Below the pieces are notes generated by a model. That model saw only the letters and a program-made list of their open reading frames with translations. It made no database searches and was not told where the DNA came from. 64,000 nucleotides of DNA, taken from an uncultured SAR86 cluster bacterium. Its GTDB lineage: Bacteria > Pseudomonadota > Gammaproteobacteria > Magnimaribacterales > D2472. A program made the position numbers and the translations under genes. Shown piece after piece: positions 23,281 to 61,746 of the stretch (positions are counted from its first letter, which is position 1; the number at the start of each line of letters is the position of its first letter). Location of the stretch: the NCBI GenBank assembly GCA_902541175.1, contig CACBPP010000002.1, positions 117,589 to 181,588 on the forward strand, given 5' to 3'.

Positions 23281-24498
23281 TTAACTCATATATTTACCTA
23301 GCTCATATCTTGCGACGGCTCTTCTATGGACTTCATCAGGGCCATCAGCGAGTCTCAGTGTTCTCATATGAGCATACATAGATGCAAGTGGTGTGAGTTG
23401 TGATACCCCTTCTCCACCATGAATTTGAATTGCTCTATCTATAATCTTTAGCGCTACATTAGGTGCGTATACTTTGATTTGTGCAATTTCGCTTGCTGCA
23501 ATTTTATTTCCAACTGTATCCATTTTAACTGCGGCATCCAATGTTAAGAATCTTGCAGCATTAAGTTCAATTCTTGACTCAGCTATGTAATCAAAATTTG
23601 CTCCAAGTTGTGCTAAGTTTTTACCAAATGCTACTTTATTTGGATCCATACCCCTTTTGCACATTAGTTCAATGGCAACCTCACCTGCACCAATTGCTCT
23701 CATACAATGATGAATACGTCCTGGCCCTAAACGACCTTGTGCAATCTCAAACCCTCTTCCTTCACCAAGTAAAAGATTTTCCTTTGGTACTCTTACATTG
23801 GTAAATTTCATATGTGCATGTCCATGAGGTGCATCGTCATAGCCAAATACATGCATCATTTTAATAATTTCTACACCCTCAGTTTCCATAGGTACAAGTA
23901 TCATTGAGTGTCTTTGATGTTTTGGATTGTCAGGATTAGTTACACACATAAATATGAGAATTTTACATCTTGGGTCACCAGCTCCTGATGTCCACCACTT
24001 CTCACCATTTATTACATATTCATCTCCATCCAAAACTGCTGTTGCTTGCATATTTGTTGCATCTGATGAAGCTGTTCCTGGTTCAGTCATACTAAATGCA
24101 GATCTTATCTCACCATCAAGTAATGGTTTAAGCCACTTTTCTTGATGTTGCTCGTTTCCATATCTTGCAATAACTTCCATGTTTCCTGTATCGGGCGCAC
24201 TACAATTCATTGCCTCAGAAGCGATATGTGATTTTCCCATTTCTTCTGCAAGATGAGCATATTCATAATTTGATAGGCCTGCTCCAAATTCACTTTCTGG
24301 TAAAAAAAGGTTCCAAAGGCCTTTTGCTCTTGCTTTTTCCTTTAACTCATCAATAACTGATGGATAACTGCTCCATCTATCTTTTCCAACGTTAATTTGC
24401 TCATGAAATACATGCTCTTTTGGTCTAACTTCAGAGTCAATAAAATCTTTTACTTTTTCAACTAATTCAACTGCTTCAGGTCTTAATTCAGGCATCAT
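23281..24498 (-). CDS. acyl-CoA dehydrogenase family protein (FadE/ACAD10-11-like)
   Basis: Motifs [29 protein letters not shown] and the C-terminal [13 protein letters not shown] are present. Confidence 0.85.
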
Positions 24499-33444: not shown

Positions 33445-34557
33445 ATGAATTTAGATTTTTCAGACGATCAAAAGTTTCTTCAAGAAGAAGCAAGAAAATT
33501 CTTAGAAAAAGAAAATTCCCTATTGCGAAATAGGACAGTTTTAGAAAATCAGTCATATTTTGATCAAGAGCTATGGTCGAAGATTGTTGAGCTTGGGTGG
33601 ACTGGTATTAGAATTCCTGAAGAATTTGATGGTCTTGGTTTAGGACATCTGGAGCTATGTGTTATTGCTGAAGAGCTTGGAAGATTTTTAGCCCCAGTTC
33701 CTTTCTCATCTTCTGTATATTTATTCACAGAAGCAATAATTAAGTATGGAAGCGAGGAAATGAAGAAAGATCTTCTTCCGAAATTAGTATCTGGAGATGT
33801 TATTGGAACCTTGGCGGTAACAGAAGATCTATTTGCACCTTCACAAGATAATATTAAATTATCTTGTGAATCAGGAAAAATAAATGGCAAGAAAATTGCT
33901 GTGCCTGACGCGAGCATTGCAACTCATGCATTAGTTGTTGCTAAATCAGAAAAAGGTATTTGTCTTCAAATTGCTGATTTATCTCATGAAGGGGTTTCAA
34001 TTGAACACCAGGAGAATATTGATGAAAGCAGAGGTCATTTCTCAATAACATTCGACGGTGTAGACACTCAAGCTATTGGTGATGACATTTCTGGATGGGA
34101 TATTTATGAATCAATTATTAATCAAGCAGCAGTTCTCTTTGCTTATGAACAAATTGGAGGTTCTCAAGCATCACTTGATATGGCCGTTAATTATGCAAAA
34201 GAAAGATATGCTTTTGGACGACCAATAGGCTCCTATCAAGCAATTAAGCATAAACTTGCTGATATGTATATTGCGCTCACTCTTGCAAAATCAAATTGTT
34301 ACTATGCTGCTTGGGCATTATCAACTGATTCAGCTGATCTCCCTTCAGCATCAGCAACAGCACGTGTTAGTGCAATCAAAGCTTATCAATTATGTTCCCA
34401 AGAAAATATTCAAACTCATGGCGGAAATGGATTTACATGGGAATATGATTGCCATATGTTTTATAGACGATCTAAGCTTTTATCATTAAATCTTGGGTCT
34501 CTAAGTAATTGGAGAGAAAAATTAGTTACTAGTTTAGAACAATCAAATATTAATTAG
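33445..34557 (+). CDS. acyl-CoA dehydrogenase-fold protein with degenerate cofactor/catalytic motifs (possible non-catalytic subunit)
   Basis: The ACAD fold is recognisable (QTHGGNGFTWEYDCHMFYRR). The usual xTEPxAGSD motif reads AVTEDLFAPSQDN, and I could align no Glu at either known catalytic-base position. Confidence 0.75.
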   Translation: MNLDFSDDQKFLQEEARKFLEKENSLLRNRTVLENQSYFDQELWSKIVELGWTGIRIPEEFDGLGLGHLELCVIAEELGRFLAPVPFSSSVYLFTEAIIKYGSEEMKKDLLPKLVSGDVIGTLAVTEDLFAPSQDNIKLSCESGKINGKKIAVPDASIATHALVVAKSEKGICLQIADLSHEGVSIEHQENIDESRGHFSITFDGVDTQAIGDDISGWDIYESIINQAAVLFAYEQIGGSQASLDMAVNYAKERYAFGRPIGSYQAIKHKLADMYIALTLAKSNCYYAAWALSTDSADLPSASATARVSAIKAYQLCSQENIQTHGGNGFTWEYDCHMFYRRSKLLSLNLGSLSNWREKLVTSLEQSNIN

Positions 34558-34567
34558 GAAAGTAAAT

Positions 34568-35791
34568 ATGGATTTTAACGACACAAAAGAAGAAGCAAAA
34601 TTTAGAAAAAAATGTAGAGATTGGCTTGAAAAAAATGCTACCTATAAAGAAGATTCAACACCTCAAAATGATGATTTTGCAAATAAAGATAAAATGAAAG
34701 CAGCTAAAGCATGGCAAAAAAAGAAATATGATGCTGGATGGGCAATGCTTCATTGGCCAGAAGAATATGGTGGAATTGGTGCTAGTTCAATGGAAAGGAT
34801 TATATGGGCTAACGAAGAAGCTAAGTTTGATGTGCCAAAGGGAATTTTTGAAATTGGTTTAGGTATGTGTGGTCCAGTGATGATGGAGTATGCTTCGGAG
34901 GAGCAAAAAGAAAGATATTTACCACCAATGGCTGAAGGTAAAGAAATTTGGTGTCAATTGTTTTCTGAACCTTCAGCAGGTTCAGATGTAGCTGGTCTCA
35001 GAAGTAAAGCAGTTCAAAAAGGTGATAAGTGGATTATTAATGGTCAGAAAGTCTGGACATCTGGTGCTCATTTTTCAGATTATGGAATTTTGGTGGTAAG
35101 ACATGATCCAGGCATAGAAAAACACAAAGGTATGACATTCTTCTTTGTTGATATGAAATCACCAGGCATTGAGATAAAGCCAATAAAGCAAATTACTGGT
35201 GGTTCAAGTTTCAATGAGGTTTATTTCACTGATGTAGAAATTCCTGACTCTCAAAGACTTGGAGAAATTGGTGATGGCTGGAAAGTTGCCATAACAACAT
35301 TAATGAATGAAAGACTTGCCGTTGGCGATGCAGGTGGAGCGGATGTTGAGGATGCCTTTAGATGGGCAAAAACTCAAGATAATCTAGGAGAGCCCCTTTT
35401 AAATAACAAAGCAGCGAGAGAATCTATTGCTGATTGGTATTGTGAAAAAAGTGGCCTTAAAAATACAAAGCTAAGAACAATGTCTGCACTTTCTAGAGGA
35501 GATACTCCTGGTCCTGAGGCATCAATAACTAAGATTGTGAGCGCTGGAAAACTTCAAAATATTGGTAATTTTGGAATAGATTCACTCGACATGGCTGGCA
35601 TGCTAAGAACAGATAATAATGATGTAAAAGGTTTTCAAAATGCCTGGTTGGGCGCACCTGGAATGAGAATAGCTGGTGGAACAGATGAAATCCTAAGAAA
35701 CATCATTGCTGAAAGAGTGCTTGGACTTCCTCAAGATCCACGAGCTGATAAAGGTGTTGCATTTAAAGACATACCATCTGGTAATTCTTAG
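34568..35791 (+). CDS. acyl-CoA dehydrogenase
   Basis: It has an intact LFSEPSAGSDVAG, KVWTSGAHFSD, a helix-G LMNER that could supply an IVD-type catalytic Glu, and the C-terminal AGGTDEILRNIIAERVLG. It starts 10 nt after the previous ACAD gene. Confidence 0.85.
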   Translation: MDFNDTKEEAKFRKKCRDWLEKNATYKEDSTPQNDDFANKDKMKAAKAWQKKKYDAGWAMLHWPEEYGGIGASSMERIIWANEEAKFDVPKGIFEIGLGMCGPVMMEYASEEQKERYLPPMAEGKEIWCQLFSEPSAGSDVAGLRSKAVQKGDKWIINGQKVWTSGAHFSDYGILVVRHDPGIEKHKGMTFFFVDMKSPGIEIKPIKQITGGSSFNEVYFTDVEIPDSQRLGEIGDGWKVAITTLMNERLAVGDAGGADVEDAFRWAKTQDNLGEPLLNNKAARESIADWYCEKSGLKNTKLRTMSALSRGDTPGPEASITKIVSAGKLQNIGNFGIDSLDMAGMLRTDNNDVKGFQNAWLGAPGMRIAGGTDEILRNIIAERVLGLPQDPRADKGVAFKDIPSGNS

Positions 35792-40919: not shown

Positions 40920-41525
40920 TTAAAAAAATATAAATTTCTTCCTTTTTAAATCTTTTTCACAACCCCAGTACTGTTTTTGATACTTAGTTGATCTTGCTTG
41001 AACTCTATCTGCAACTTTTATTAACCATTGTTTTTTTCTATAAGTTTTTCTTTCAAACCCTGTATAACCCTCGTGATATGCTAAATACAGTGACCTTGCA
41101 TCAGACCTCTCAAAACCTTGATAGTAACCCTTGCTTGCGTACCAACCTATAAAGTCTGCTGAATCTGCAAAATCTTTTCTGTTCGCCCTAGTATTTCCAG
41201 TTTCATCCTTATAATCATCCCAGGTTTTAGTAAGTGCTTGAGAATATCCAACAGCTGAAGATGGTCTAAACCAAGGTATAAAACCAAGGATTTTTTCTCT
41301 ATCAGGTTTGGCATCTGATTGGAAACTTGACTCCTGATGAACAAATGACATCAATACATAAGGTGGTATTTTCCATCTTTTTTCGCTTTTAATGACTGCT
41401 TTGTACCAACTTCTTTTTTCTTTGAAAATCAGACATATATTGTCAGGATTCTCCGGAGGTCTTGTAGCACAAGATTGAATAATCAATATTATTAATATGA
41501 AGTAACTATACTTAAATCTTTTCAT
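40920..41525 (-). CDS. lipoprotein with SLT-type lytic transglycosylase-like domain
   Basis: It has lipobox IIQSC and a catalytic-Glu context (FVHQESSFQSDA). It overlaps the ligase stop by 14 nt. Confidence 0.6.
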   Translation of the reverse strand: MKRFKYSYFILIILIIQSCATRPPENPDNICLIFKEKRSWYKAVIKSEKRWKIPPYVLMSFVHQESSFQSDAKPDREKILGFIPWFRPSSAVGYSQALTKTWDDYKDETGNTRANRKDFADSADFIGWYASKGYYQGFERSDARSLYLAYHEGYTGFERKTYRKKQWLIKVADRVQARSTKYQKQYWGCEKDLKRKKFIFF

Positions 41526-42798
41526 CCTCTTTAAATCCTCTAAAGTTTTTAAATCTTGGAAATCTTAAGCTATAGTGCTCGCCCTCAATACTTTGAGTTA
41601 TAGCATCTGCTCTAATTTCTACCATTCTTCCAATAAGTTTATCTTTTGCAGCCCAAAATCTTTCTCTATCATCATCAGTAAGGCCACTTCCAACGCTTAA
41701 AGAAAAGAACTTACCATCGTCTTTGCCTTCTACATGAAATGCACCTAACTTACCCTCATGCTTCCCTGACCCCTCTTGAATATCAATAACCTTCAGCGTT
41801 ACCTCAATGAAAGGTTTAATTTTTAACCAAGCATGACTTCTTTTACACTCATAAAAATTATCATTAGGTTTAATCATTAAGCCTTCAAAGCCTTTTTCAA
41901 GTGCTTCTTTATTCATGTTAGAAAATTTAGCTTTTCCATCATCATTATCAAAGTTAATAATTTCATAATCTACAAGCTTTATTGCATCATCAAATGATTT
42001 AGCTAATTCATTAAGTTGTTTTTTTCTTTCAATTGAAGTTAGTATACTTTTTCCATTATTAAATTCTTTGAGTGGAAGAATATCAAACAAAGCAAGATAG
42101 GCATCGTCAGTTTTTGCTCCAGATTTTCTATAAACTTGTTTCATTAAAGCTTGAAAATCATCGCTCATCACCTCTCCATCGAAAACAAGATTATTAAATT
42201 CTTTTTTACTTAGAGCGCTTTCAATATGTGGAAAATTATTAAATATCTTTCCATTTCGACTGTATAAAGTAGCTCTTCCATTTTTAACAATCGCAATAAC
42301 TCTTACACCATCATATTTGTACTCTACCAAACAATCGCCCTTAATTTTTTTTGGATGTTTAGCACCGTCATGAGCTAACATACATGAAAAAATAGGTACT
42401 CTAAATTCCAAGTCCATTTTTTTTGCAACGTTATTTACTGTCTTTTCACTTACTCCACATCTTAGGTCCTTGATAAGAATTCTTCTATACCAATAATTCC
42501 ACTGATCTGTCTTTGATGATTCAATTAATTCAATAATCAAATCTCTAGCAGCATGGCCAGTTTTGTCTCTATCTATTAATTGATTTGCAGCTTTCTTAAA
42601 ATCACTCCAATCTAAACCAACTCCATCTTCAATACATTCAGGCACTTGTTTTACTCCAAATGTGGTCAAAGGATCTAAACACATAACAAGTCCCTCTTGA
42701 AAAATTTTATCGTTAAGGTGCTTTTCTATCACTCCCTCTTTAAATAGCCGACTATTATCACTTTCAAGTTCTACAATAATCTTCCAAGGTTCTATCAT
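41512..42798 (-). CDS. ATP-dependent DNA ligase (compact three-domain type, cytoplasmic)
   Basis: All nucleotidyltransferase motifs are present: I EYKYDGVR, III LVFDGEV, IIIa LALFDIL, IV EGLMIK, V WLKIKP and VI LRFPRF. A helical N-terminal domain of about 150 aa ends in ILIKDLRCGVSEKTV. There is no signal peptide. Confidence 0.9.
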   Translation of the reverse strand: MIEPWKIIVELESDNSRLFKEGVIEKHLNDKIFQEGLVMCLDPLTTFGVKQVPECIEDGVGLDWSDFKKAANQLIDRDKTGHAARDLIIELIESSKTDQWNYWYRRILIKDLRCGVSEKTVNNVAKKMDLEFRVPIFSCMLAHDGAKHPKKIKGDCLVEYKYDGVRVIAIVKNGRATLYSRNGKIFNNFPHIESALSKKEFNNLVFDGEVMSDDFQALMKQVYRKSGAKTDDAYLALFDILPLKEFNNGKSILTSIERKKQLNELAKSFDDAIKLVDYEIINFDNDDGKAKFSNMNKEALEKGFEGLMIKPNDNFYECKRSHAWLKIKPFIEVTLKVIDIQEGSGKHEGKLGAFHVEGKDDGKFFSLSVGSGLTDDDRERFWAAKDKLIGRMVEIRADAITQSIEGEHYSLRFPRFKNFRGFKEDEKI

Positions 42799-42802
42799 TT
42801 AT

Positions 42803-43426
42803 TTAATTTTCCTCATCAGAAATATTAAGTTGTTTTAATCTTGCTGTATCTTGAGCTCTAGACTCAATATGTGAAATCATTTGTTTTGTTATTGGAGTTC
42901 TGTCTTGATCACAAAGTGTTGCATAAAATTTTTCTGCAAAGTTAATTGAAAATTCGATCATTTGTTTCACTGTATTTAAAGGATCATCTACAACATTTAA
43001 ATCAGATACAACTGCAATTGCAAACGATTTAGTTTCATCATCAAAAGTTCCCGGTTTTAAAGCGTTTATGACCCGAAATTTTTCTATTTTATTATCTTGA
43101 TAAAAAGCAAAGTAATTATTCACAGTTTTTGCTCCATAATTTGATAAAAAACCAAACAATTGATCCATGTCAAACATAGATCTATCCATAGAAATTAAAT
43201 TTAATATTACTAATTCCTGGTCATTTGACTGATTTATATCAAAATCAAAAGATTGTTGATTTTTATGTGGCTCATCTGAAATATTTAAATCGGATGGATC
43301 TTGGACTTTCTCAATTTTAACTTTTAAATTACCATCATTTGAGACTTTTCTTATGAATAAAAAAGTAATTATAAGAAATATCAAAATAGCGAGTCCTATT
43401 AGATATATCTCTGAATTTACACTCAT
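42803..43426 (-). CDS. zipA: cell division protein ZipA (short form)
   Basis: It has an N-terminal TM anchor and a C-terminal FtsZ-binding domain. INALKPGTFDDETKSF matches E. coli MVKPGTFDPEMKDF. It is 207 aa and lacks the long P/Q linker. Confidence 0.85.
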   Translation of the reverse strand: MSVNSEIYLIGLAILIFLIITFLFIRKVSNDGNLKVKIEKVQDPSDLNISDEPHKNQQSFDFDINQSNDQELVILNLISMDRSMFDMDQLFGFLSNYGAKTVNNYFAFYQDNKIEKFRVINALKPGTFDDETKSFAIAVVSDLNVVDDPLNTVKQMIEFSINFAEKFYATLCDQDRTPITKQMISHIESRAQDTARLKQLNISDEEN

Positions 43427-45625
43427 TTACGATTCAGCCAACTCGAGAGCTTGATTTACATCCACCGATACCATCCTTGAAACTCCAGCCTCTTGCATTG
43501 TTACACCCATAAGGTAGTCGCTTCTTTCCATTGAAACTTTATTGTGAGTTATGAATATAAACTGAACAGTTTTTGACATCTCCTCGACCATATTTATAAA
43601 TCTTAATGTATTCAAGTCATCCAAAGGAGCGTCTACTTCATCTAGCAAACAAAAAGGTGCTGGATTTAAGTCAAAAATTGCAAAAACTAAGGCCAATGCA
43701 GTTAGGGCTTTTTCACCACCAGACAGTTGAGATATTGATGAGTTTTTCTTTCCAGGAGGTCTTGCCATTAAAATCACACCGGCATTTAAAGCATCCTCCT
43801 CAGTCAAGGTTAATTCAGCTACCCCGCCACCAAAGAGTTTTGGAAACATCTCTTTTAGTTTTGAGTTAACAGAGTCAAAGCTTTCCTTAAAAATTGTTTT
43901 AGTTTCTTGATCTATCTTTTTTATTGCACCAGTAAGTTTTTCTAAAGCTTCTGTTAAGTCATTATATTGTTCATCTAGCTCTTCTTTTCTTTTTGATTCC
44001 TCTTCTATTTCTTCTGGCGCGGCTAAGTTAATAGCTCCTAATTTTATTATTTTTGTCTCAATATTGACCAGCTTATCCTCAAGCTCTTCTATAGTCATAT
44101 CTTCATATTCAGAAAAATCTATTTTATCTATGTCTATTCCAGCTTCTTTAATTTTTTTATTTGAATTATCTAAATTAATTTCGTAAGTTTTTTGCTCTAT
44201 TCTTATGTTTGTGATCTTTTCAGAAATTGTTCTGGCATCTAAATCTGCAATAGATTTTTTATTTTCAAACTCCCTCAATTCTTCATTAAATTTAGATTGT
44301 TTTTGCCTTAGGGAAATTAAAACTGATTCAGCACTAGAACTTTTATCTACAAAGTCTCTCATTTCATCTTCGATAGACTTTTTCAATTTTTCAGCATTTA
44401 AAATTTGATCCTCAAGATCATTTTGTCTTGATAAATATTCCTCAGTTAATGTCTTTGATTGAGCAGTCGCTATATTTAGAATATCTGTAAGTAAGCTTTT
44501 TAATTCAATTGCTTTTTCTCTGATATTTTCATTTTTTATTCCATATTTCTCTATTGTATTTATCATGCTGTCAAGGATATGCATTGCCTTTTCGCTTGGA
44601 CTTAACTCTTCAAAATTCTTTTCAGTTTCTTTAGCTTTTTCATAATTTTGTTTTACTTTTTCTAAATTAGACTTTGTTTCCTGTTCATTTTTATTGATGT
44701 TGTGAAGATTTGCCTCCCTTTTAGCTATTTCAGCACCTACAGCATAGAAATTCTTTTGAGCTTCTTCATATTCGCTCAGAACAGATTCATTTTCGGTTCT
44801 AAATTGATCTATTTGAGATTGTATGGTTTCAGATTCAGCATTTTTTATCTGCAAGTCTCTGTTTAATGAATCTAATTTTTTTTGAAGATCATCTCTACTA
44901 CTTTTAGCTTCAATAGAAAATAAAACGGCCTTGTCCAGTTCAAGTTTTGCTTTATCTTTTTTAAGTTCATTATATTTTTCAGCAGCTTTTGCCTGATTCT
45001 CAAGTCTTTTTATTAATCTTCCTATTTCATCTCTGATATCTTTTACTCGTGATAAATTTTCTCTGGTTCTTTTAATTCTAGATTCTGTTTCTTTTCTTCT
45101 TTCTCTATACTTTGATACTCCTGCAGCCTCTTCAATATGCGTTCTTAACTCATCTGGTTTTGCACTTACAAGCTTGGTGACCATCCCTTGTTCAATAATT
45201 GCATAAGAGCTTGGTCCAAGGCCGGTACCAAGGAATATATCTTGTACATCTTTCCTTCTACATTTTGTATTGTTTATAAAATAGTCAGACTGAGCGTCTC
45301 TTGTCATAACTCTTTTAATTGATACTTCATTAAATGATGCATACTCTCCCCCTATTTTCGCACTCGAGTTATCAAATAAGAGCTCGATACTGCATTGACC
45401 AGAAGCTTTTCTGTTCTCTGAGCCGTTGAAGATTACATCCACCATTGATTCACCTCTAAGATTTTTTGCTGATAATTCACCAAGCACCCATCTAACAGCA
45501 TCAATTACGTTTGATTTTCCACAACCATTTGGACCTACAACGCCGACCATATTTGTTGGGAAAGATATCTTCGTTGGATCAACGAAACTTTTAAAACCTG
45601 AAAGTTTTATATGTTTAAGCTGCAT
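43427..45625 (-). CDS. smc: chromosome partition protein Smc, unusually short (732 aa) with no recognisable hinge
   Basis: The N-terminal head is MQLKHIKLSGFKSFVD...VVGPNGCGKSNVIDAVRWVLGE. The C-terminal head has the signature LSGGEKALTALAL, Walker B CLLDEVDAPLDD and ITHNK. Between the heads lies only about 390 aa of heptad-rich sequence. Confidence 0.85.
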   Translation of the reverse strand: MQLKHIKLSGFKSFVDPTKISFPTNMVGVVGPNGCGKSNVIDAVRWVLGELSAKNLRGESMVDVIFNGSENRKASGQCSIELLFDNSSAKIGGEYASFNEVSIKRVMTRDAQSDYFINNTKCRRKDVQDIFLGTGLGPSSYAIIEQGMVTKLVSAKPDELRTHIEEAAGVSKYRERRKETESRIKRTRENLSRVKDIRDEIGRLIKRLENQAKAAEKYNELKKDKAKLELDKAVLFSIEAKSSRDDLQKKLDSLNRDLQIKNAESETIQSQIDQFRTENESVLSEYEEAQKNFYAVGAEIAKREANLHNINKNEQETKSNLEKVKQNYEKAKETEKNFEELSPSEKAMHILDSMINTIEKYGIKNENIREKAIELKSLLTDILNIATAQSKTLTEEYLSRQNDLEDQILNAEKLKKSIEDEMRDFVDKSSSAESVLISLRQKQSKFNEELREFENKKSIADLDARTISEKITNIRIEQKTYEINLDNSNKKIKEAGIDIDKIDFSEYEDMTIEELEDKLVNIETKIIKLGAINLAAPEEIEEESKRKEELDEQYNDLTEALEKLTGAIKKIDQETKTIFKESFDSVNSKLKEMFPKLFGGGVAELTLTEEDALNAGVILMARPPGKKNSSISQLSGGEKALTALALVFAIFDLNPAPFCLLDEVDAPLDDLNTLRFINMVEEMSKTVQFIFITHNKVSMERSDYLMGVTMQEAGVSRMVSVDVNQALELAES

Positions 45626-45650: not shown

Positions 45651-46436
45651 TTATAACTCTTGTGGGGTTTTAAACCATTCATTTAAATTAATTTTGTATG
45701 AATTAAAAGGTATATCTTGATTAGGAAATATTTTGTTTTCTACAAAAAATATTTGCTGATCATCCAAGCAATTAATTTTAATTTTCATCTCAATAGATTC
45801 TTGATTTAAATATGCAGAAGCTAAGTCAAATCCAGGTATCACGCTGTCTAGATTATTTAATGAAATATTATCTTTGTTTTTGAATTCTTTTTTGGCAATC
45901 GGTATTTCAGGACCATTTGCTATGAAAAGAGTAACTTCTCCATTTCTAATAGAACACGGATACAATGAGCTAGAGTCTATCTTAAAACTAGAGCTCTTAA
46001 ATTTAGGAAATTTCTCATCTCTTAAAGCAGCATATAAGTTATAGAAGATAAGTTTTTCATTATTTGATTTAAAGAATCTCTCTGAAAAAGCTATTAAACT
46101 CTCAGCTGACTTAAGTTTTTTTAAATCTATTGATTTGCCAATAAGGCCTACTAGCCAATTTTTTAATTCATCTTCATCAAGAATATTTTCTAGTTGTTTT
46201 AGATATTCAACAGATATTCCTTCATCAATATAAATTTCATCAAAAATTTTATTATTTAGTGCTTGTTTTTCATAAGAACCAACAAATGCAAATTTACTTA
46301 TAAACATAAATAGGCATAAGGAAAGGATTAACAATGATGATCCAAAGATCAGTCCTTTGTTTATGGTTTTCTGAGCCAAAATATAAGCGATTATTGGCAA
46401 AGCGGCTAATATTGTTAATAAATAAAAAATAAACAT
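45651..46436 (-). CDS. ccmI: CcmI-like cytochrome c maturation protein (assigned by position)
   Basis: It directly follows ccmH with a 1-nt overlap and has two N-terminal TM helices, as in the CcmI-1 module. The C-terminal part is not obviously TPR. Confidence 0.45.
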   Translation of the reverse strand: MFIFYLLTILAALPIIAYILAQKTINKGLIFGSSLLILSLCLFMFISKFAFVGSYEKQALNNKIFDEIYIDEGISVEYLKQLENILDEDELKNWLVGLIGKSIDLKKLKSAESLIAFSERFFKSNNEKLIFYNLYAALRDEKFPKFKSSSFKIDSSSLYPCSIRNGEVTLFIANGPEIPIAKKEFKNKDNISLNNLDSVIPGFDLASAYLNQESIEMKIKINCLDDQQIFFVENKIFPNQDIPFNSYKINLNEWFKTPQEL

Positions 46437-56027: not shown

Positions 56028-58844
56028 TTAAAATTCAGCACCAAATTGTAGACCCCAAGTTCTAGGATCTGTGAAGTTTCCATATAATTGGCCACCTTGG
56101 ATATTACTTCCAGATCTTATGCTATTAATTATTCTGTCATCAGTTAAATTCTTAGCATATAAACCAACATACCAATCTCCGTTATTTGGAGTAAATCTAA
56201 TAAGCGAATCCCACATTTTTTGCTCAGGAACATCAAATCTTGAGTAATTAAATGGATCACCATTTACCTCGTCTCTGAATCTATAAGAAAGCCTCCACGA
56301 AGTTTCACCATTTTCTGTTGGGAATACTTGTGTCAAAGAGAGACTGTAGGAAAGATCTGCTACACCAGGTAAAGGATTACCAGCAACACTCACAGGAACT
56401 CCTAATGATGCAGCTGCAGGACAATCAACACCTGCCGCAGGAGCAAAGCGTGGAGAACTACAGTTAAATCCAGCAGATTTAAAACCTGTGACTCCATTAT
56501 CAAAAACAGCGCCAGTTTGGAATCCTGTGCCAGCAGTATCAACTGGTCCTAAGTATCTTATAATACTATTAGCATCCCATGGGTTTAGGTAATTAATTGT
56601 AGCTGGTGCATCCGTAATTTCTGCATCAACCATTAACCATGAAAGTTCTAATTGTGTTGTTTCAGATAAAAATACATTCATTTGACCCTCAAAACCAGTG
56701 ATTTCAGCATCAACGTTGTTGTTAAATGATTGCGTATCTCTAATCGTTGCAAGCAACATACCTTCGTTATCATTTTTATAAAGGTTCATATTAAGAAGCA
56801 TTGCACCGTCAAGTAATCTAGCTTTTAAACCAAAGTCTAGTACAGCAGTTTCTTCCTTATCATAAGGGATAGGATCATCACCTGCGTTTACACCAGCACC
56901 CTTGGTAGCAGTTGCATAACTTGCGTATACCATAACATCGTCTCTCAGATATTTTTGAATTGCAATTTTTCCGTTAGTAGCTGATTCATTTTGAACTAGG
57001 TAGTCTACTAATCCAGGTACTTTCATTCTGTCATCGTATAAAAAACCACCAGCACGAATCCAATCAGTTGAAAGAATACCACCATTATAAGTTGTGGTAG
57101 CATTAGTTAAATCATCAAAACGTAATCCAAAGGTAAGTTTAGTAGTATCATTTAGATCGTAATAAAGCTCACCATAAAGAGCTTGAGATTTAATTCTTAC
57201 ATGTTGATCACTTAAAGTACCTCTAATATCCATAGGAACTGTTACATCAGGTAATTTACCAAGATCACCGATTGATTTTTGCCATGCTTGAAGTGCTGCT
57301 ATATCTTCTTGAGATACTGGAAGGCCCATTGCAAGCATAGTAGCGGTAGTTTGTGCATCGGTTGCACCTCCAACTACAGCTAATAAACCTTGATAGAAAG
57401 GAACACCACCTTTGGCACCAAAGTCTACACCTAATAGCGCAGTAACTGTTGGGTAATAAGGATGTGAACTAAAGTCACCAATATATTGAGTACCTGGAGT
57501 TTGAACTCTGTACTCGTTATCATTTCTTGAATCATACATGTAGTAACCAACTGTATAATTAAGAGGTCCATCAAAATCTGAAATTATGTTAATTTCAGCT
57601 TGTTGTGATTCATACAATACATCTGAAAAGTCATATGTTCTGTCGGTTGTTACATATTCGCAGAATCCAAAACGAGGAGTTCCAAAGCACTGTTCTGACT
57701 CAACAGGTGGTAGACCTAATAATACGCCAGCACCTATAAATGGTGAGTATGAAACACTACCATCATTATCATTCATTTGTTGGAACATTCTTGTTTCATA
57801 TGAATATTTTGCAGTCATAGTCAGGCTATCACTTAGTTCTTTTACCAACTCTAGGTTTGAAAATTCTATTTTTTGAAGGTGAGTTGGCTCTCTATTTACA
57901 GATAACTCTCCAAGCTCAAGAGCTGGAGGTGTTGCTCCATAATCGTTAGTAATGGTTCCGGGATATAAAGCTGCAATAAACGAGAATAATCCAGCACCTA
58001 TACCTCTACTATCAGCAGCGGTATTAGGAGTTCCTCTTTCCCACGGCGAACAACCAAAAAATGCATCTTGTTTACAGAAAGAAACTTCTTCTTGAGGTCT
58101 ATTATCATCACTTTTTTGACCTGAATATGTAAATCTTAATTCAGTAGTATCGTTAATGTCCCAGTCAATAGAAAGTCTGACTGCTTCATCGTTTCTATCA
58201 TCCATAACATTTCCAGTGAAAGGATTATCAACCATTCCATCTCTAGTGTTTGTCATAAATGCTAGCCTTCCTCTTACATCATCAGAAAAAGGAACATTTA
58301 TTGCACCTTGAACAGTTTCTTTATCATATGAACCACCTTCGAATCTAATAGAACCTTCAAATTCATCAGTAGGTCTTTTGGTAATTAAATTGATAACACC
58401 TGCAACTGAGTTTCTACCAAAAAGTGTACCTTGAGGACCATTAAGAACCTCAATACGCTCAAGATCCATGAATCCCATATCTGTCATGATACTTGGATTC
58501 ACACTATGCCCATTAACACTTGTTACTATTGAACTAACAACAGCAGCACCAACACCATAAGATCCAATACCTCTCATAACAAACCCTGAACCAGAACCGA
58601 TTCCTTTTGCTACTTCAAAGCCTGGAACAACTTCAGCTAAGTCTGAAAGATCATATAACTGATCAGCTTCAAGTTGATCTGATGTTATAGCAGTGATTGA
58701 AACTGCAATATCTTGAGTTGATTCCTCTTTCTTAGTAGCTGTAACAACAACTTCTTCAATTTCTTGTGCAAAAGAAGAAATAGAGAAAGCTAATGTTAAA
58801 AGAGAAATAGAAAATAATTTACTAGTAAAATTTATGTTAAACAT
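56028..58844 (-). CDS. TonB-dependent outer-membrane receptor (paralog 1)
   Basis: It has a signal peptide and a plug N-terminus (AQEIEEVVVTATKKEESTQD, IEVLNGPQGTLFGRN). The C-terminal beta-barrel ends in TWGLQFGAEF. I trimmed the start to the ATG at 58844, which has the SD GGGGGA. Confidence 0.9.
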   Translation of the reverse strand: MFNINFTSKLFSISLLTLAFSISSFAQEIEEVVVTATKKEESTQDIAVSITAITSDQLEADQLYDLSDLAEVVPGFEVAKGIGSGSGFVMRGIGSYGVGAAVVSSIVTSVNGHSVNPSIMTDMGFMDLERIEVLNGPQGTLFGRNSVAGVINLITKRPTDEFEGSIRFEGGSYDKETVQGAINVPFSDDVRGRLAFMTNTRDGMVDNPFTGNVMDDRNDEAVRLSIDWDINDTTELRFTYSGQKSDDNRPQEEVSFCKQDAFFGCSPWERGTPNTAADSRGIGAGLFSFIAALYPGTITNDYGATPPALELGELSVNREPTHLQKIEFSNLELVKELSDSLTMTAKYSYETRMFQQMNDNDGSVSYSPFIGAGVLLGLPPVESEQCFGTPRFGFCEYVTTDRTYDFSDVLYESQQAEINIISDFDGPLNYTVGYYMYDSRNDNEYRVQTPGTQYIGDFSSHPYYPTVTALLGVDFGAKGGVPFYQGLLAVVGGATDAQTTATMLAMGLPVSQEDIAALQAWQKSIGDLGKLPDVTVPMDIRGTLSDQHVRIKSQALYGELYYDLNDTTKLTFGLRFDDLTNATTTYNGGILSTDWIRAGGFLYDDRMKVPGLVDYLVQNESATNGKIAIQKYLRDDVMVYASYATATKGAGVNAGDDPIPYDKEETAVLDFGLKARLLDGAMLLNMNLYKNDNEGMLLATIRDTQSFNNNVDAEITGFEGQMNVFLSETTQLELSWLMVDAEITDAPATINYLNPWDANSIIRYLGPVDTAGTGFQTGAVFDNGVTGFKSAGFNCSSPRFAPAAGVDCPAAASLGVPVSVAGNPLPGVADLSYSLSLTQVFPTENGETSWRLSYRFRDEVNGDPFNYSRFDVPEQKMWDSLIRFTPNNGDWYVGLYAKNLTDDRIINSIRSGSNIQGGQLYGNFTDPRTWGLQFGAEF

Positions 58845-58954
58845 GAATATCCCCCAATGTTTAAATTGTTTTGCATATTTTATGCTTAAAAGTAGCTTTA
58901 GGACAACAAATTTAGATAAAAAATATATATAAAAATAGATGTATTTTTGATAAA

Positions 58955-58986
58955 CCAAACAAAAAAGGCTGGTAAAACCAGCCTTT
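58955..58986 (-). terminator. rho-independent terminator between the two receptor genes
   Basis: The stem AAGGCTGG/CCAGCCTT has loop TAAAA and is followed on the minus strand by TTTTGTTTGG. Confidence 0.7.
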
Positions 58987-59004
58987 AATCACTTTACTTA
59001 ACAA

Positions 59005-61746
59005 TTAGAAGGTAGTTCCAAATGCAATTCCCCAGGTTCTTGGATCAGTTATAGTTGCAAATTTATTACCGCCTTGTAATCCACTTGCAAGATACCAAGA
59101 GCCTATGTATCTATCATTAGTAAGATTTTTGCCCTCCAGCCTTACAAACCAATTACCACCATTTGGTCTATAAGTTACCGTTGCGTCGAAAAATTCATGT
59201 TCTGGCATTTTTAACCATGGCTGATTAAACACTGTGCCTTCTCTCTCATCCATAAATCTATAGGCAATTCTTGCAGTTGTAATACCATTGTCTCCAACAA
59301 AATCTTTATTAAGTCCAATGCTATAAGAAAGTTCCGGTGATTGAGGTAATTTATTACCTGATACATCTACAGGAACACCCAAATCATCGCCTTTACATCC
59401 TGCAGCACCAGTAGGATCAAATGGATTAAATGGAGCAAGACACATAAACCCAGCAAATTTATAAACAAGACCTGCATCAGTTGCGCCAACTGACAAAACA
59501 CCACCAGTAGAAGCGATTGGAAGCATTAAGCCTCCACCGAGAGCAGCAGGAAGAGGAACTCTTGCAGTTGCATTATTGATATTAACTGGATTGATTAAAC
59601 TTAAGCTGGTTATCTCGGTATCAACTTTTAATAATGTTAAATCAATACTTAATGTTTCGTTTAAATACAACAACATATTACCTTCAAACCCTTCTATCTC
59701 CGCGTCTGTATTAACATTCCTTGATCCCGCATTCACAATGGATGAAATCAACATGCCATCAGTGGTATTTTGGAAATAAGTTGCATTTAGCAACATTGCT
59801 CCATCAAGGAATATGCCTTTTGCGCCAACTTCAAATACAGCTGTTTCTTCTTGATCGTAAGGATCTGGTGTTCCGGTTGAATTAGGATTATTACCACCTG
59901 CTTTTACGGCAGTGGTATAACTTGTATAAACCATTCTGTTGTCATCAAGGTCATGTTGTAATGCCAGCTTATAACCAAGTGCATCATCAGATTCAGTAAC
60001 CTGAGTTGGGAAGAATCCATACTCAGAAGTGACTTTTTGTGAGTCAGGATAATTTGGACAACTTGCAAATGTTAAACATGATGCAACACTATCTTTTACA
60101 ACATCATCGTTATATCTAATACCAAGAGTAAACATGGTATCGTCTGAAAGTTCATAGTACATCTCACCAAGAATTGCTTTTGATTTAATTCTTACATGAT
60201 CTTCATTAACAAAACCTTGAATTTGTAAGGGTGTTGTATAACCAGTTAAAACTGATGGTAGTGCGTCAGCACTAAAGGCAGCTAAAGCCCAAGCAACATG
60301 AAAATCAGTTGAACCAGATCCGGTAAGAGCTCCTCCAAATAAGGCATTGTTATATGGATGAACACTTGAATCACGTATCAAGTTCCATGCGGCTGTTTGA
60401 ACTTGGTAAATATTTGTTGTTGTTAAATCATAATAATAATAACCTATCTGGTAATTTAAAGGTCCGTCAAAGTCAGATATCAATGTTACTTCACCTTGCC
60501 AAGTTTCGGTTTCAGTAAATGCAAATTCATATGTTCTATCAGTAGTATTAATTTCACAGAATGTATTATGAAAACCTCCATAACAACCTTCCCACTGCAT
60601 TGGAATTGCAGATGCTGGATGCCCAGCTGGAAATAATCCCGGAAATGGTTGAGGCGCCACTGCATAATCATTATCACCAACATGCTCATAATCTCTTACG
60701 CTATATGTACTTTTTACCTCTAATCTATGATCGTCATTAAGCTCATGATCTAATTTCACTTGAGCAAATTGATATGTTTGCTTTAGAACAGGATCTCTAT
60801 TGAGATTTACTACTTCTATATCATTGGTAGGCACTACTCCAGCATAAGAATTATATGTTGGATTAGGTGTTAAAGCTGCTGCAAAATTAAAGAATCCTGC
60901 AGTACTTCCGTTAACATGAGCCGGTTGACCAAATACACCTTTATCAAAAGGACTACACCCAAATAAAGGATCTTGTTGACAAACATTATGACCAATATTT
61001 TGTCTATCATCATCAGCCTTTTGATAATCATATGTTAATTCCATTGAAGTAGAATCACTTATATCAAAGTCAATCGATAATCTTGCACCTAAAGCATCTC
61101 TTCCATCAATGTCATTTCCAGTATATAAATTTTTAACAACTCCATCTCTTTCAAATGTAGTTGCAGCCAATCTCATACCAACTCTATCTGAAAGTGGTAC
61201 ATTGAAAACCATATTTGTTCTTGTTGAATTTAGATTACCCATTGAAACTTCAAAAGAACCTTCAAGCTCTGATGTTGGTCTAGCAGTAACAATATTTACC
61301 AAGCCTTGAACAGCATTTCTTCCAGATAATGTTCCTTGAGGTCCTTTTAAAACCTCAATTCTCTCAAGATCATGAAAACCTGTATCAGCAAGAGCAGATG
61401 ATCCGAATTCGTGACCATTCATTGAGACCACCAATGATCCAACTACTGCTGCTCCTACACCATATGAACCAACGCCCCTCATTGAGTAAGATGCGCCAGA
61501 ACCAATAGCTTTATCAACAATCAATCCAGGTACTACTTCAGCTAAATCGCTAAAGTCATCAATCATATTCTTGTCAATATCAGAAGATGTAAACGCCTCA
61601 ATAGAAACTGGAATATCTTGAACAGATTTTTCTTGTTTTGTTGCAGTCACAACTACTTCTTCTATTTCTTGAGCGGTTACGAATGCTGTAAAAATTAATG
61701 AAAAGCATAATGAAAAATTAAATGCTATTTTTGAATACTTATACAT
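59005..61746 (-). CDS. TonB-dependent outer-membrane receptor (paralog 2)
   Basis: The architecture matches paralog 1: AQEIEEVVVTATKQEKSVQD, IEVLKGPQGTLSGRN and terminal TWGIAFGTTF. The SD is AGGGGGGA. Confidence 0.9.
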   Translation of the reverse strand: MYKYSKIAFNFSLCFSLIFTAFVTAQEIEEVVVTATKQEKSVQDIPVSIEAFTSSDIDKNMIDDFSDLAEVVPGLIVDKAIGSGASYSMRGVGSYGVGAAVVGSLVVSMNGHEFGSSALADTGFHDLERIEVLKGPQGTLSGRNAVQGLVNIVTARPTSELEGSFEVSMGNLNSTRTNMVFNVPLSDRVGMRLAATTFERDGVVKNLYTGNDIDGRDALGARLSIDFDISDSTSMELTYDYQKADDDRQNIGHNVCQQDPLFGCSPFDKGVFGQPAHVNGSTAGFFNFAAALTPNPTYNSYAGVVPTNDIEVVNLNRDPVLKQTYQFAQVKLDHELNDDHRLEVKSTYSVRDYEHVGDNDYAVAPQPFPGLFPAGHPASAIPMQWEGCYGGFHNTFCEINTTDRTYEFAFTETETWQGEVTLISDFDGPLNYQIGYYYYDLTTTNIYQVQTAAWNLIRDSSVHPYNNALFGGALTGSGSTDFHVAWALAAFSADALPSVLTGYTTPLQIQGFVNEDHVRIKSKAILGEMYYELSDDTMFTLGIRYNDDVVKDSVASCLTFASCPNYPDSQKVTSEYGFFPTQVTESDDALGYKLALQHDLDDNRMVYTSYTTAVKAGGNNPNSTGTPDPYDQEETAVFEVGAKGIFLDGAMLLNATYFQNTTDGMLISSIVNAGSRNVNTDAEIEGFEGNMLLYLNETLSIDLTLLKVDTEITSLSLINPVNINNATARVPLPAALGGGLMLPIASTGGVLSVGATDAGLVYKFAGFMCLAPFNPFDPTGAAGCKGDDLGVPVDVSGNKLPQSPELSYSIGLNKDFVGDNGITTARIAYRFMDEREGTVFNQPWLKMPEHEFFDATVTYRPNGGNWFVRLEGKNLTNDRYIGSWYLASGLQGGNKFATITDPRTWGIAFGTTF

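What the first reader, a model, noticed from the sequence alone, without database searches (positions are those of the whole stretch)
43427..45625. Smc orthologue shortened to 732 aa with no recognisable hinge domain
Seen directly: one uninterrupted ORF has canonical Smc head halves. These include an N-terminus nearly colinear with Pseudomonas Smc, Walker A GPNGCGKS, the signature LSGGEKAL and Walker B LLDEVDAPLDD. The roughly 390 residues between the heads are heptad-like, Lys/Glu/Asn-rich sequence.

I cannot find the hinge hallmarks, namely the Gly-rich GxxGxxxDL segment and the GRxTFLPL-type motif. There is also no CxxC zinc hook. The only break is a short Pro-containing segment around ELSPSEKAMHILDSMINTIEKYGIKN.

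Established knowledge: bacterial Smc is typically about 1,100-1,200 aa, and hinge-mediated dimerisation is considered central to ring formation and DNA entrapment.

Inference: this is a hinge-less mini-Smc with RecN-like topology, retained at the housekeeping locus next to zipA.
Basis: partly seen in the sequence, partly recalled or inferred. Interest (0 to 1): 0.72.

Follow-up and report, generated by a model that had tools for sequence, protein, structure and literature searches.

The report
Hinge-less, half-length Smc of SAR86
A widespread marine bacterium (SAR86) keeps its chromosome-organising Smc protein at the usual locus, but with the hinge and the outer half of both arms replaced by a small conserved helical cap, so nature has dropped a part usually considered defining for this protein family.

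Summary
The ORF lies on the minus strand (43427-45625, 732 aa). It has intact Smc ATPase motifs and scores 814 bits against the bacterial SMC equivalog model (cut-off 567).

No hinge is detectable. Pfam finds none, and profile-profile comparison with 136 canonical hinges gives 7% probability against 100% for a positive control. The AlphaFold2 model shows only two short helices (about 55 aa) between two roughly 24-nm arm helices.

It is neither an assembly artefact nor a decaying gene:
- More than 120 independent metagenome, single-cell and long-read contigs encode the same 732-aa protein.
- dN/dS is about 0.05 in the arms and cap.
- The ccm-smc-zipA-ligase locus is conserved.

All SAR86 relatives examined are hinge-less, in discrete length classes of 727/732, 810 and 995 aa. 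The 995-aa form equals the short form plus one duplicated module in each arm strand (+120 and +143 aa). Both modules copy the head-proximal arm, so these arms change length by paired modules.

The likeliest function is a miniature Smc-kleisin complex that dimerises through the cap and/or aligned arms. This is inferred, because the ScpAB partners could not be searched genome-wide.

A 2025 paper already reported hinge-less oceanic SMCs, assigned to Actinobacteria. I therefore rate this a new variant of a known kind.

The parts
43427..45625 (-). smc CDS, 732 aa plus stop codon (stop at 43427-43429)
   Evidence: ORF list and translation. SMC_prok_B scores 814.5 bits against a cut-off of 567. More than 120 near-identical 732-aa clusters come from independent contigs.
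45116..45625 (-). N-terminal half of the ATPase head (residues 1-170), including Walker A at 45512-45535 and Q-loop Q146
   Evidence: Motifs in the sequence. 67% identical to the canonical Smc P0123. Beta/alpha head fold in the AF2 model.
44624..45115 (-). N-arm: one continuous helix, residues 171-334 (about 24 nm)
   Evidence: AF2 model, pLDDT 81-92. Heptad contrast 0.70. Specifically similar to the head-proximal N-arm of canonical Smc (z = 8.5) and not to the distal arm (z = 0.9).
44450..44623 (-). Cap that replaces the hinge (residues 335-392). It consists of a break at ELSPSEK, helix 343-360, a loop, helix 366-388, and a break.
   Evidence: AF2 shows no beta strands; confidence is low (10-residue block mean pLDDT 47-71; <50 at 336-343 and 386-391). 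hhalign against a hinge profile gives 6.9% probability. The motifs LSPkEKA.HllD and ELK.LL..IL.IAsaQSKslT are conserved across 60 distinct 727/732/995-aa sequences. No solved homologue exists. dN/dS is 0.05-0.16.
44144..44449 (-). C-arm helix, residues 393-494
   Evidence: AF2 model. Specifically similar to the head-proximal C-arm of canonical Smc (z = 8.8) and not to the distal arm (z = -0.8).
44021..44143 (-). Joint-like discontinuity (residues 495-535) ending in the conserved loop LGAINLAAP
   Evidence: AF2 shows breaks at 495-511 and 530-535. G530, I532, N533, A535 and A536 are invariant across 57 Smc sequences, canonical ones included. The best fold match is the Smc head + coiled coil + joint structure 5xei.
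43430..44020 (-). Neck helix and C-terminal half of the head (residues 536-732), with the signature motif at 43709-43726 and Walker B/D-loop at 43619-43648
   Evidence: Motifs in the sequence. 66% identical to the canonical Smc. Head motif residues are invariant in the alignment.
42803..43426 (-). zipA-like gene (207 aa). It starts at the base next to the smc stop codon and marks positional orthology.
   Evidence: Pfam ZipA_C 1e-11. Found downstream of smc in 727, 732, 995 and three of the five sampled 810-aa loci, and in the P0191 and P0204 contigs.
41512..42798 (-). ATP-dependent DNA ligase (428 aa) occupying the slot that holds NAD-dependent ligA in relatives. This is context, not part of Smc.
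   Evidence: Pfam DNA_ligase_A_M 1.6e-23. NAD-dependent LigA sits at this position in L022, L037 and L042. Census of loci.

Best explanation
This is the genuine, functional Smc (bacterial condensin ATPase) orthologue of a SAR86 gammaproteobacterium. The hinge and the distal half of both arm helices, about 500 of the roughly 1,170 canonical residues, have been replaced by a conserved two-helix cap of about 55 aa.

The retained parts are the complete ABC-type head, the neck, the joint and the head-proximal arm of about 164 residues (about 24 nm).

**Shown:**
- Orthology to Smc.
- Absence of a hinge.
- Purifying selection on the whole protein.
- A lineage-wide hinge-less state across SAR86.
- Arm length that changes by paired duplicated modules.

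**Inferred:**
- The protein still forms a homodimer. The dimer is closed at the far end by the cap (for example a small helical bundle) and/or by arms zipped into a rod. At the near end it is closed by ATP-engaged heads bridged by a kleisin (ScpA with ScpB).
- It works as a small-lumen Smc-kleisin DNA-entrapping or loop-extruding motor for a genome of about 1.3 Mb.
For: **It is Smc.**
- SMC_prok_B scores 814.5 bits against a cut-off of 567.
- The top PDB sequence hits are bacterial Smc heads at 3e-106.
- The top fold hits are Smc head + coiled coil + joint structures.
- Residues 1-338 and 399-732 align without gaps to residues 1-338 and 838-1171 of a canonical 1,171-aa Smc.
- The retained arms match only the proximal canonical arms, with z = 8.5 and 8.8.
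- Head motifs and neck/joint residues are invariant across 57 sequences.

**It has no hinge.**
- Pfam finds none at E <= 1 in any SAR86 class, while the control P0236 scores 4.7e-12.
- hhalign gives 7-11% probability for the SAR86 classes against 100% for the control.
- The AF2 model has no strand between residues 171 and 598.

**It is real and functional.**
- More than 120 clusters of identical length come from ENA, JGI, Tara and NCBI, and from SAGs and long-read MAGs.
- For the closest pair compared, dN/dS is 0.01-0.02 in the heads and about 0.05 in the arms and cap.
- Cap motifs are conserved across 60 distinct sequences.
- Synteny is conserved.

**Function without the hinge fold is plausible.**
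- Replacing the B. subtilis hinge with a Rad50 zinc hook supports normal growth on rich medium (PMC5344682).
- Natural prokaryotic Smc arm lengths show a minor mode at 163 aa (PMC5344682).
Against: - Dimerisation through the cap is not tested. The AF2 confidence there is low (10-residue block mean pLDDT 47-71; <50 at 336-343 and 386-391) and only a monomer could be modelled.
- ScpA, ScpB, ParB and any second SMC-type complex could not be searched genome-wide. None lies in the 64-kb window.
- Abrogating hinge dimerisation inactivates B. subtilis Smc (PMC5344682).
- Engineered B. subtilis arms were functional only near 253-267 aa or at 321 aa and above, not near 160 aa.
Confidence: 0.7

Rival explanations
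1. An open, non-ring SMC. The cap merely closes each hairpin and does not dimerise. The two subunits meet only at the ATP-engaged heads, with or without a kleisin. The protein would then act as a DNA clamp or bridge rather than a topological ring.
For: The AF2 monomer folds the cap back as two short helices at low confidence. Nothing in the sequence proves an intermolecular interface. No solved homologue of the cap exists.
Against: The cap motifs are at least as conserved as the arms across the 727/732/995-aa classes. That is more than a passive turn would need. The 995-aa class keeps the same cap at the end of longer arms. Loss of distal dimerisation inactivates B. subtilis Smc (PMC5344682).
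Confidence: 0.17
2. A specialised paralogue or SMC-like protein (with a RecN-, SbcC- or MksB-like role). The real condensin would be encoded elsewhere in the genome.
For: The topology resembles RecN. Public annotations are inconsistent ('recombination protein RecF', 'AAA family ATPase'). The rest of the genome was not visible.
Against: It passes the Smc equivalog cut-off, while RecN (35 bits against 408) and the Rad50 models fail by a wide margin. It sits in the smc-zipA-ligase slot in every SAR86 class. Its nearest full-length relatives are canonical gammaproteobacterial Smc at about 45% identity. For a different hinge-less cluster, no co-occurring regular SMC was found in GORG single-cell genomes (PMC12153180).
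Confidence: 0.08
3. A cryptic, highly diverged hinge is hidden in residues 335-400.
For: MAFFT placed residues 339-393 opposite hinge columns 596-659 of a canonical Smc. Smith-Waterman of the cap against the hinge gives z = 2.6.
Against: Only about 55 residues are available, whereas a hinge needs about 150-170. Pfam finds no hit at E <= 1. hhalign probability is 6.9%, and the matched columns are flanking coiled coil rather than the hinge core. AF2 predicts helices only. z = 2.6 is within noise.
Confidence: 0.03
4. An assembly collapse or a decaying pseudogene.
For: None was found.
Against: The length is identical in more than 120 clusters from independent assemblies. These include single-cell genomes, long-read or polished MAGs, and contigs up to 1.37 Mb. 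The frame is intact and dN/dS is about 0.03 over the whole gene.
Confidence: 0.02

Closest known systems
Canonical bacterial Smc of Smc-ScpAB (TIGR02168; for example B. subtilis or Pseudomonas Smc, about 1,170-1,190 aa)
   Same: The head, all ATPase motifs, the neck, the joint and the head-proximal arm are shared. The locus next to zipA is also shared. Heads are 66-67% identical to a canonical gammaproteobacterial Smc.
   Different: It lacks the hinge and the distal halves of the arms, about 500 aa. A two-helix cap of about 55 aa takes their place. The arm is about 24 nm, against about 47-50 nm in canonical Smc.
Engineered B. subtilis Mini-Smc and Smc(Zh), the zinc-hook chimera (Burmann et al. 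2017, PMC5344682)
   Same: Both have shortened arms. Both show that the hinge fold can be replaced by an unrelated distal closure. The natural arm of about 164 aa coincides with the minor natural length mode at 163 aa.
   Different: This one is natural rather than engineered. It has no zinc hook and no cysteines in the arms. Its arm is shorter than any functional engineered construct reported there (253-267 aa, or 321 aa and above).
'Hinge-less' oceanic SMC cluster from OM-RGC (Environ Microbiome 2025, PMC12153180)
   Same: Both have an SMC head, an antiparallel coiled coil, no hinge and no CxxC. Both are abundant in the ocean and show no evidence of a viral origin.
   Different: That cluster is assigned to Actinomycetes and branches with actinobacterial Smc. 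The protein here is gammaproteobacterial: SAR86 single-cell genomes, smc-zipA synteny, and nearest relatives among gammaproteobacterial Smc. The supplementary files held as text give sequence identifiers but no sequences, so identity with that cluster could not be tested.
RecN
   Same: Both have an SMC-type head, short antiparallel coiled coil and no hinge.
   Different: It scores 35 bits against the RecN cut-off of 408. The best fold and sequence matches are Smc, not RecN. The locus and the joint are Smc-like.
Rad50/SbcC
   Same: Both have a head and a hinge-less coiled coil.
   Different: There is no CxxC zinc hook, because no cysteine lies between residues 123 and 658. Rad50 models score 34-50 bits against cut-offs of 700 to over 1,000.
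Archaea-specific SMC-related proteins (ASRP, NF045487)
   Same: Both are short SMC-derived proteins lacking a canonical hinge (my recollection of that family, plus the weak hit found here).
   Different: It scores 71.6 bits against a cut-off of 300. The protein here is bacterial and is an orthologue of Smc itself, not a separate family.

Membership tests
Bacterial Smc (NCBIfam TIGR02168 SMC_prok_B, equivalog) | Whole-protein score above the curated equivalog cut-off | tested here: met
   814.5 bits against a cut-off of 567.35. The sister classes score 735-842 bits.
Bacterial Smc | ABC-type head with Walker A, Q-loop, signature motif, Walker B, D-loop and H-loop | tested here: met
   GPNGCGKS at 31, Q146, LSGGEK at 634, LLDEVD at 660, DAPLD, and H694. 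All are invariant across 57 sequences.
Bacterial Smc | Long antiparallel coiled-coil arm with a head-proximal joint | tested here: met
   AF2 helices 171-334 and 393-494, with a joint-like break at 495-535. Heptad contrast is 0.69 against 0.41 for shuffled sequence. The arm is only about half the canonical length.
Bacterial Smc | Central hinge dimerisation domain (Pfam PF06470) | tested here: not met
   Pfam finds no hit at E <= 1, while control P0236 scores 4.7e-12. hhalign gives 6.9% against 100% for the control. The AF2 model has no beta strands there.
Bacterial Smc | Positional orthology (the smc-zipA-ligase neighbourhood of gammaproteobacteria) | tested here: met
   ccmF-dsbE-ccmH-x-smc-zipA-ligase-SLT is conserved in the 727, 732 and 995-aa loci; the sampled 810-aa loci keep ccmF-dsbE-ccmH-smc-ligase-SLT but lack x, and zipA is detected in three of five.
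Bacterial Smc | Kleisin and kite partners ScpA and ScpB in the same genome | not testable with these tools
   No ScpA or ScpB Pfam hit in the roughly 63 window ORFs scanned.
RecN (TIGR00634) | Score above the equivalog cut-off | tested here: not met
   35.1 bits against a cut-off of 407.85.
Rad50/SbcC | CxxC zinc hook at the coiled-coil apex | tested here: not met
   Cysteines occur only at residues 35, 78, 122 and 659. Rad50 models score far below their cut-offs.
MukB/MksB | MukB- or MksB-type head and hinge domains | tested here: not met
   No MukB or Mks family appears among the Pfam or NCBIfam hits for this protein.
Published hinge-less oceanic SMC cluster (PMC12153180) | SMC head plus coiled coil, no hinge, no CxxC, abundant in ocean metagenomes | tested here: met
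   Description of the cluster.
Published hinge-less oceanic SMC cluster (PMC12153180) | Same clade (actinobacterial placement and annotation) | tested here: inconclusive
   The protein here is SAR86/gammaproteobacterial. The supplementary files held as text list sequence identifiers but not sequences, so a direct comparison was impossible.

The most novel reading that the evidence does not exclude
SAR86 Smc would be a natural minimal SMC motor. The hinge has been replaced by a new dimerisation cap of about 55 aa. Arm length is tuned in evolution by gaining or losing one matched module at a time: about 105-111 helical residues per strand plus a joint-like break. This would be a natural counterpart of the step of about 100 aa seen in engineered Smc. 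The more radical version is that the protein does not close a ring at the distal end at all. A housekeeping Smc would then work without hinge-mediated topological entrapment.
Probability: 0.3. Interest if true: 0.85.

Novelty: new variant of a known kind. Interest (0 to 1): 0.66.

Why it matters
The hinge is treated as a defining and essential part of SMC proteins, both for dimerisation and as a proposed DNA gate.

Here one of the most abundant bacterial clades of the surface ocean keeps a strongly selected Smc orthologue without a hinge. It retains only the head-proximal half of the arm.

The clade also provides a natural series of arm lengths: 727/732, 810 and 995 aa. The longest form was built by duplicating matched N- and C-strand modules.

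This gives SMC mechanists three things:
1. A naturally minimised motor to express and image.
2. A candidate minimal distal closure domain.
3. An evolutionary test of the idea that arm length is quantised.

It also explains why annotation pipelines call these genes 'AAA family ATPase' or 'RecF'.

Tried and rejected
- **Self-BLAST of the 995-aa protein** reported no off-diagonal hits. I replaced it with segment-wise Smith-Waterman plus shuffles, which was clearly positive.
I rebuilt the alignments from permitted proteins.
- **The AFDB Foldseek library** was unavailable.
- **Approximate ScpA and ScpB probes recalled from memory** found nothing by tblastn in the window or in 77 loci. This was only a lead and is not evidence of absence.
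- **A Pfam scan of about 63 window ORFs** found no ScpA, ScpB, MukBEF or MksBEF.
- **Literature searches.** SAR86 + SMC + hinge returned one irrelevant paper. The 15 top-ranked papers from a broader SAR86/ScpA/ScpB/kleisin/MukB search did not mention SAR86.
- **The supplementary files of PMC12153180 held as text** give cluster identifiers but no sequences.
- **Direction of the 732/995 length change** was attempted from trees and left unresolved. A 27-taxon CcmF tree, a 33-sequence SMC-head tree and an SLT tree place the 732-aa clade next to the ATP-ligase 995-aa clade. The SMC-head tree covering all usable loci makes the 732 and 995 classes reciprocal sisters.
- **Rejected readings:** cryptic hinge, zinc hook, RecN/Rad50/MukB membership, assembly artefact, pseudogene.
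Full report
**1. The observation**

The window is AT-rich (about 31% GC) and tightly packed with genes. The ORF at 43427-45625 is on the minus strand and is 732 aa with an ATG start.
- Walker A GPNGCGKS at 31-38
- Q-loop Q146
- signature LSGGEK at 634
- Walker B/D-loop LLDEVDAPLDD at 660-670
- H-loop H694
- the Pro-containing segment ELSPSEK at 340-346

Between residues 166 and 560 the sequence is rich in Glu, Lys, Ile, Leu and Asn. It has only two prolines (P343, P537) and no cysteine. Its heptad contrast is 0.69, against 0.41 +/- 0.03 for shuffles.

Pfam reports SMC_N (2.3e-55) and no SMC_hinge. NCBIfam's bacterial Smc equivalog model scores 814.5 bits against a cut-off of 567.35, in two stretches. 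RecN scores 35 bits against 408, and the Rad50 models score 34-50 bits against cut-offs of 700 or more.

**2. It is real, selected, and belongs to SAR86**

A search of 5.8 billion proteins returned more than 120 clusters at 98-100% identity, all exactly 732 aa. They come from ENA, JGI, Tara and NCBI contigs up to 1.37 Mb. Source names vary: 'SAR86 cluster bacterium', 'chromosome segregation protein', 'AAA family ATPase' and 'recombination protein RecF'.

A scan of GTDB species representatives gave 77 loci. Their titles name SAR86 or unclassified (Gamma)proteobacteria, and many are GORG single-cell genomes or long-read or polished MAGs. This excludes an assembly collapse.

dN/dS between the window and L007 is 0.01-0.02 in the heads and about 0.05 in the arms and central cap. 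Other pairs give at most 0.19, with saturated dS.

The gene order ccmF-dsbE-ccmH-(261-aa ORF)-smc-zipA-ligase-SLT is conserved in the 727, 732 and 995-aa loci. The sampled 810-aa loci keep the same order but lack the 261-aa ORF, and zipA is detected in three of the five. These are therefore positional orthologues of Smc.

**3. No hinge**

A hinge-bearing 1,003-aa relative (P0236) serves as positive control. It scores 4.7e-12 on Pfam SMC_hinge and 100% in hhalign against a profile of 136 canonical hinge regions. The results for the hinge-less proteins are:

| Protein or class | Pfam SMC_hinge | hhalign probability |
|---|---|---|
| 727/732-aa class | none (E <= 1) | 6.9% |
| 810-aa class | none (E <= 1) | 11% |
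| 995-aa class | none (E <= 1) | 7% |
| P0204 (736 aa) | none (E <= 0.1) | 1.9% |
| P0143 (827 aa) | none (E <= 0.1) | 3.9% |
| P0191 (906 aa) | none (E <= 0.1) | 0.7% |

 The weak hhalign matches fall on flanking coiled coil, not on the hinge core.

The AlphaFold2 model has mean pLDDT 81.6 and this layout:
- the head
- one continuous N-arm helix, 171-334
- a low-confidence break at 335-342
- two short helices, 343-360 and 366-388
- a break
- the C-arm helix, 393-494
- a joint-like discontinuity, 495-535, ending in the invariant LGAINLAAP loop
- the neck helix leading back into the head

There is no strand anywhere between residues 171 and 598. The best fold matches are Smc head + coiled coil + joint crystal structures (5xei, 5xns, 5h68). 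The best sequence matches in the PDB are bacterial Smc heads at 3e-106. The cap has no solved homologue.

**4. What was lost**

Against a canonical 1,171-aa gammaproteobacterial Smc (P0123), residues 1-338 align without gaps to 1-338, and residues 399-732 align without gaps to 838-1171.

Segment tests confirm that the retained arms are the head-proximal halves:
- N-arm against the proximal N-arm gives z = 8.5. Against the distal N-arm it gives z = 0.9.
- C-arm against the proximal C-arm gives z = 8.8. Against the distal C-arm it gives z = -0.8.
- The cap matches nothing significantly.

About 500 residues (distal arms plus hinge) were therefore replaced by about 55-60. The N-arm helix of 164 residues corresponds to about 24 nm. 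This coincides with the minor mode at 163 aa in the natural distribution of prokaryotic Smc arm lengths (PMC5344682). That survey located arms by hinge homology and so could not have included hinge-less proteins.

**5. A lineage-wide state with quantised arms**

SAR86 orthologues fall into discrete lengths: 732 aa, 727 aa, 810 aa and 995 aa. All pass the Smc equivalog cut-off, scoring 799-842 bits.

The 995-aa form equals the short form plus 120 aa inserted just before the cap and 143 aa inserted just after it. Both inserts are tandem duplicates:
- L048 residues 294-370 match 414-490 (z = 13).
- L048 residues 589-712 match 732-845 (z = 19).
- The landmark motifs YSIG, LSPK, TYEINL, INLAxP and DE(Y/F)L each recur at offsets of exactly 120 or 143 residues.

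The inserts resemble the proximal canonical arms (z = 5.0 and 8.5) and not the distal ones (z = 2.2 and 0.1). They are therefore regrown copies, not relics of the lost distal arm.

The AF2 model of a 995-aa protein shows one extra helical segment per strand: 343-453 (111 residues) on the N strand, and roughly 104 residues of helix 485-614 on the C strand once the cap's second helix is subtracted. It also shows an extra joint-like break. This is close to the step of about 100 aa and the superhelical period of 91-99 aa reported for engineered and natural Smc arms (PMC5344682).

The short 727-aa forms are basal in two SMC-head trees and the CcmF tree; in the shorter SLT4 tree the NAD-ligase 995-aa clade is basal instead. 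The simplest history is a hinge-less ancestor of about 730 aa followed by expansion through duplication.

Whether the 732-aa clade kept the short state or reverted from a 995-aa ancestor is unresolved. The reduced-taxon trees (a 33-sequence SMC-head tree, CcmF and SLT4) and the shared ATP-dependent ligase favour reversion. The SMC-head tree covering all usable loci makes the 732 and 995 classes sisters.

Further hinge-less proteins that pass the Smc model exist in marine metagenomes:
- P0204 (736 aa; a 458-member cluster; ccmG-ccmH-smc-zipA context)
- P0143 (827 aa)
- P0191 (906 aa; 151 members; a different upstream context but still smc-zipA)

**6. How it most likely works**

Shown:
- The ATPase machinery is intact.
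- The neck and joint residues are conserved with canonical Smc: E165, E166, G169, Y173, T180, E181, R183, N190, R193, E200, L208, G530, I532, N533, A535, A536 and R546 are invariant.
- The cap motifs LSPkEKA.HllD and ELK.LL..IL.IAsaQSKslT are amphipathic and conserved across 60 distinct sequences of three length classes.

From published knowledge:
- ScpA binds the Smc neck and head.
- The joint is a ParB interface (title of PMC9449133).
- Distal dimerisation is required, but the hinge fold is not. A Rad50 zinc hook substitutes for it in B. subtilis (PMC5344682).

Inferred: SAR86 Smc is a miniature Smc-kleisin complex. Its far end is closed by the cap and/or by zipped arms.

The main rival is an open, heads-only dimer. 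A paralogue role, a cryptic hinge and an artefact are each unlikely, for the reasons given under the rival explanations.

**7. Comparison with what is known, and novelty**

By descent this is Smc, on the evidence of sequence score, fold and locus. It fails one defining architectural feature, the hinge, so it should be filed as a hinge-less derivative rather than a canonical member.

It resembles RecN or Rad50 in outline only. It fails their family models and has no zinc hook.

A 2025 study reported an abundant 'hinge-less' SMC cluster in ocean metagenomes. It assigned that cluster to Actinobacteria and did not characterise it further (PMC12153180).

Three points appear not to have been described in the papers I could search:
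- the SAR86/gammaproteobacterial identity
- the positional orthology
- the modular, duplication-driven arm-length series

I therefore rate the finding a new variant of a known kind, with interest about 0.66.

**8. Limits**

- No multimer prediction was possible.
- Only 64 kb of the genome was visible, so ScpAB, ParB and alternative condensins remain unchecked.
- The trees are neighbour-joining trees on single genes.
- dS is saturated for most pairs.

Noticed in passing
window 41512-42798 (-); compare L022 8805-10955, L037 9082-11133, L042 9622-11777: The slot after zipA holds a 428-aa ATP-dependent DNA ligase, where gammaproteobacteria normally keep NAD-dependent ligA. Related SAR86 loci have NAD-dependent LigA at this position. 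Counts among species-representative loci are: 727-aa class 7 of 7 NAD; 810-aa class 12 of 12 NAD; 732-aa class 22 ATP and 2 NAD; 995-aa class 21 ATP and 9 NAD. This looks like an in-situ replacement of the replicative-type ligase, with a mosaic distribution that suggests recombination. Whether another ligA exists elsewhere in the genome is unknown.
   Followed up: partly
window 42803-43426 (-): ZipA is also miniaturised. It is 207 aa, with a ZipA_C domain (1e-11), but scores only 25 bits against the 120-bit cut-off of the full-length ZipA model. Its start codon abuts the smc stop codon.
   Followed up: no
window 45651-46436 (-): A 261-aa ORF between ccmH and smc has no significant Pfam or NCBIfam match. 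It is conserved in the 727, 732 and 995-aa loci at 32-98% identity. tblastn does not detect it in the 810-aa loci.
   Followed up: partly
L042 9622-11154 and 11208-11777: In this 995-aa-class MAG the NAD-dependent ligase is split into two ORFs. One carries the adenylation and OB domains, the other the HhH and BRCT domains. This could be a frameshift, an assembly error or a genuine split.
   Followed up: no
P0191 (L078 2367-5087), P0204 (L080 1387-3597), P0143: Other marine gammaproteobacterial lineages carry hinge-less proteins of 906, 736 and 827 aa that pass the Smc model, each next to zipA where the context is known. P0191 has a different upstream context (queF) and groups apart from the SAR86 clade in the head tree, which hints at independent hinge loss.
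   Followed up: partly
P0236 (1,003 aa, marine metagenome): This Smc keeps a recognisable hinge (PF06470, 4.7e-12) but has clearly shortened arms. It shows that arm shortening and hinge loss can be uncoupled.
   Followed up: no
window 43427-45625 (public annotations of the same protein): Sources name the identical or near-identical protein inconsistently. Names include 'recombination protein RecF [SAR86]', 'AAA family ATPase', 'chromosome segregation protein', and in one case 'hypothetical protein [Prochlorococcus sp.]', which probably reflects a mis-binned contig.
   Followed up: no
window 56028-61746 (-), 23281-24498 (-), 33445-35791 (+): Gene content matches SAR86 as I recall it from the literature (not checked here): two large TonB-dependent receptors, several acyl-CoA dehydrogenases, a GH16 glycoside hydrolase, a cytochrome P450 and an alkyl sulfatase.
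   Followed up: no
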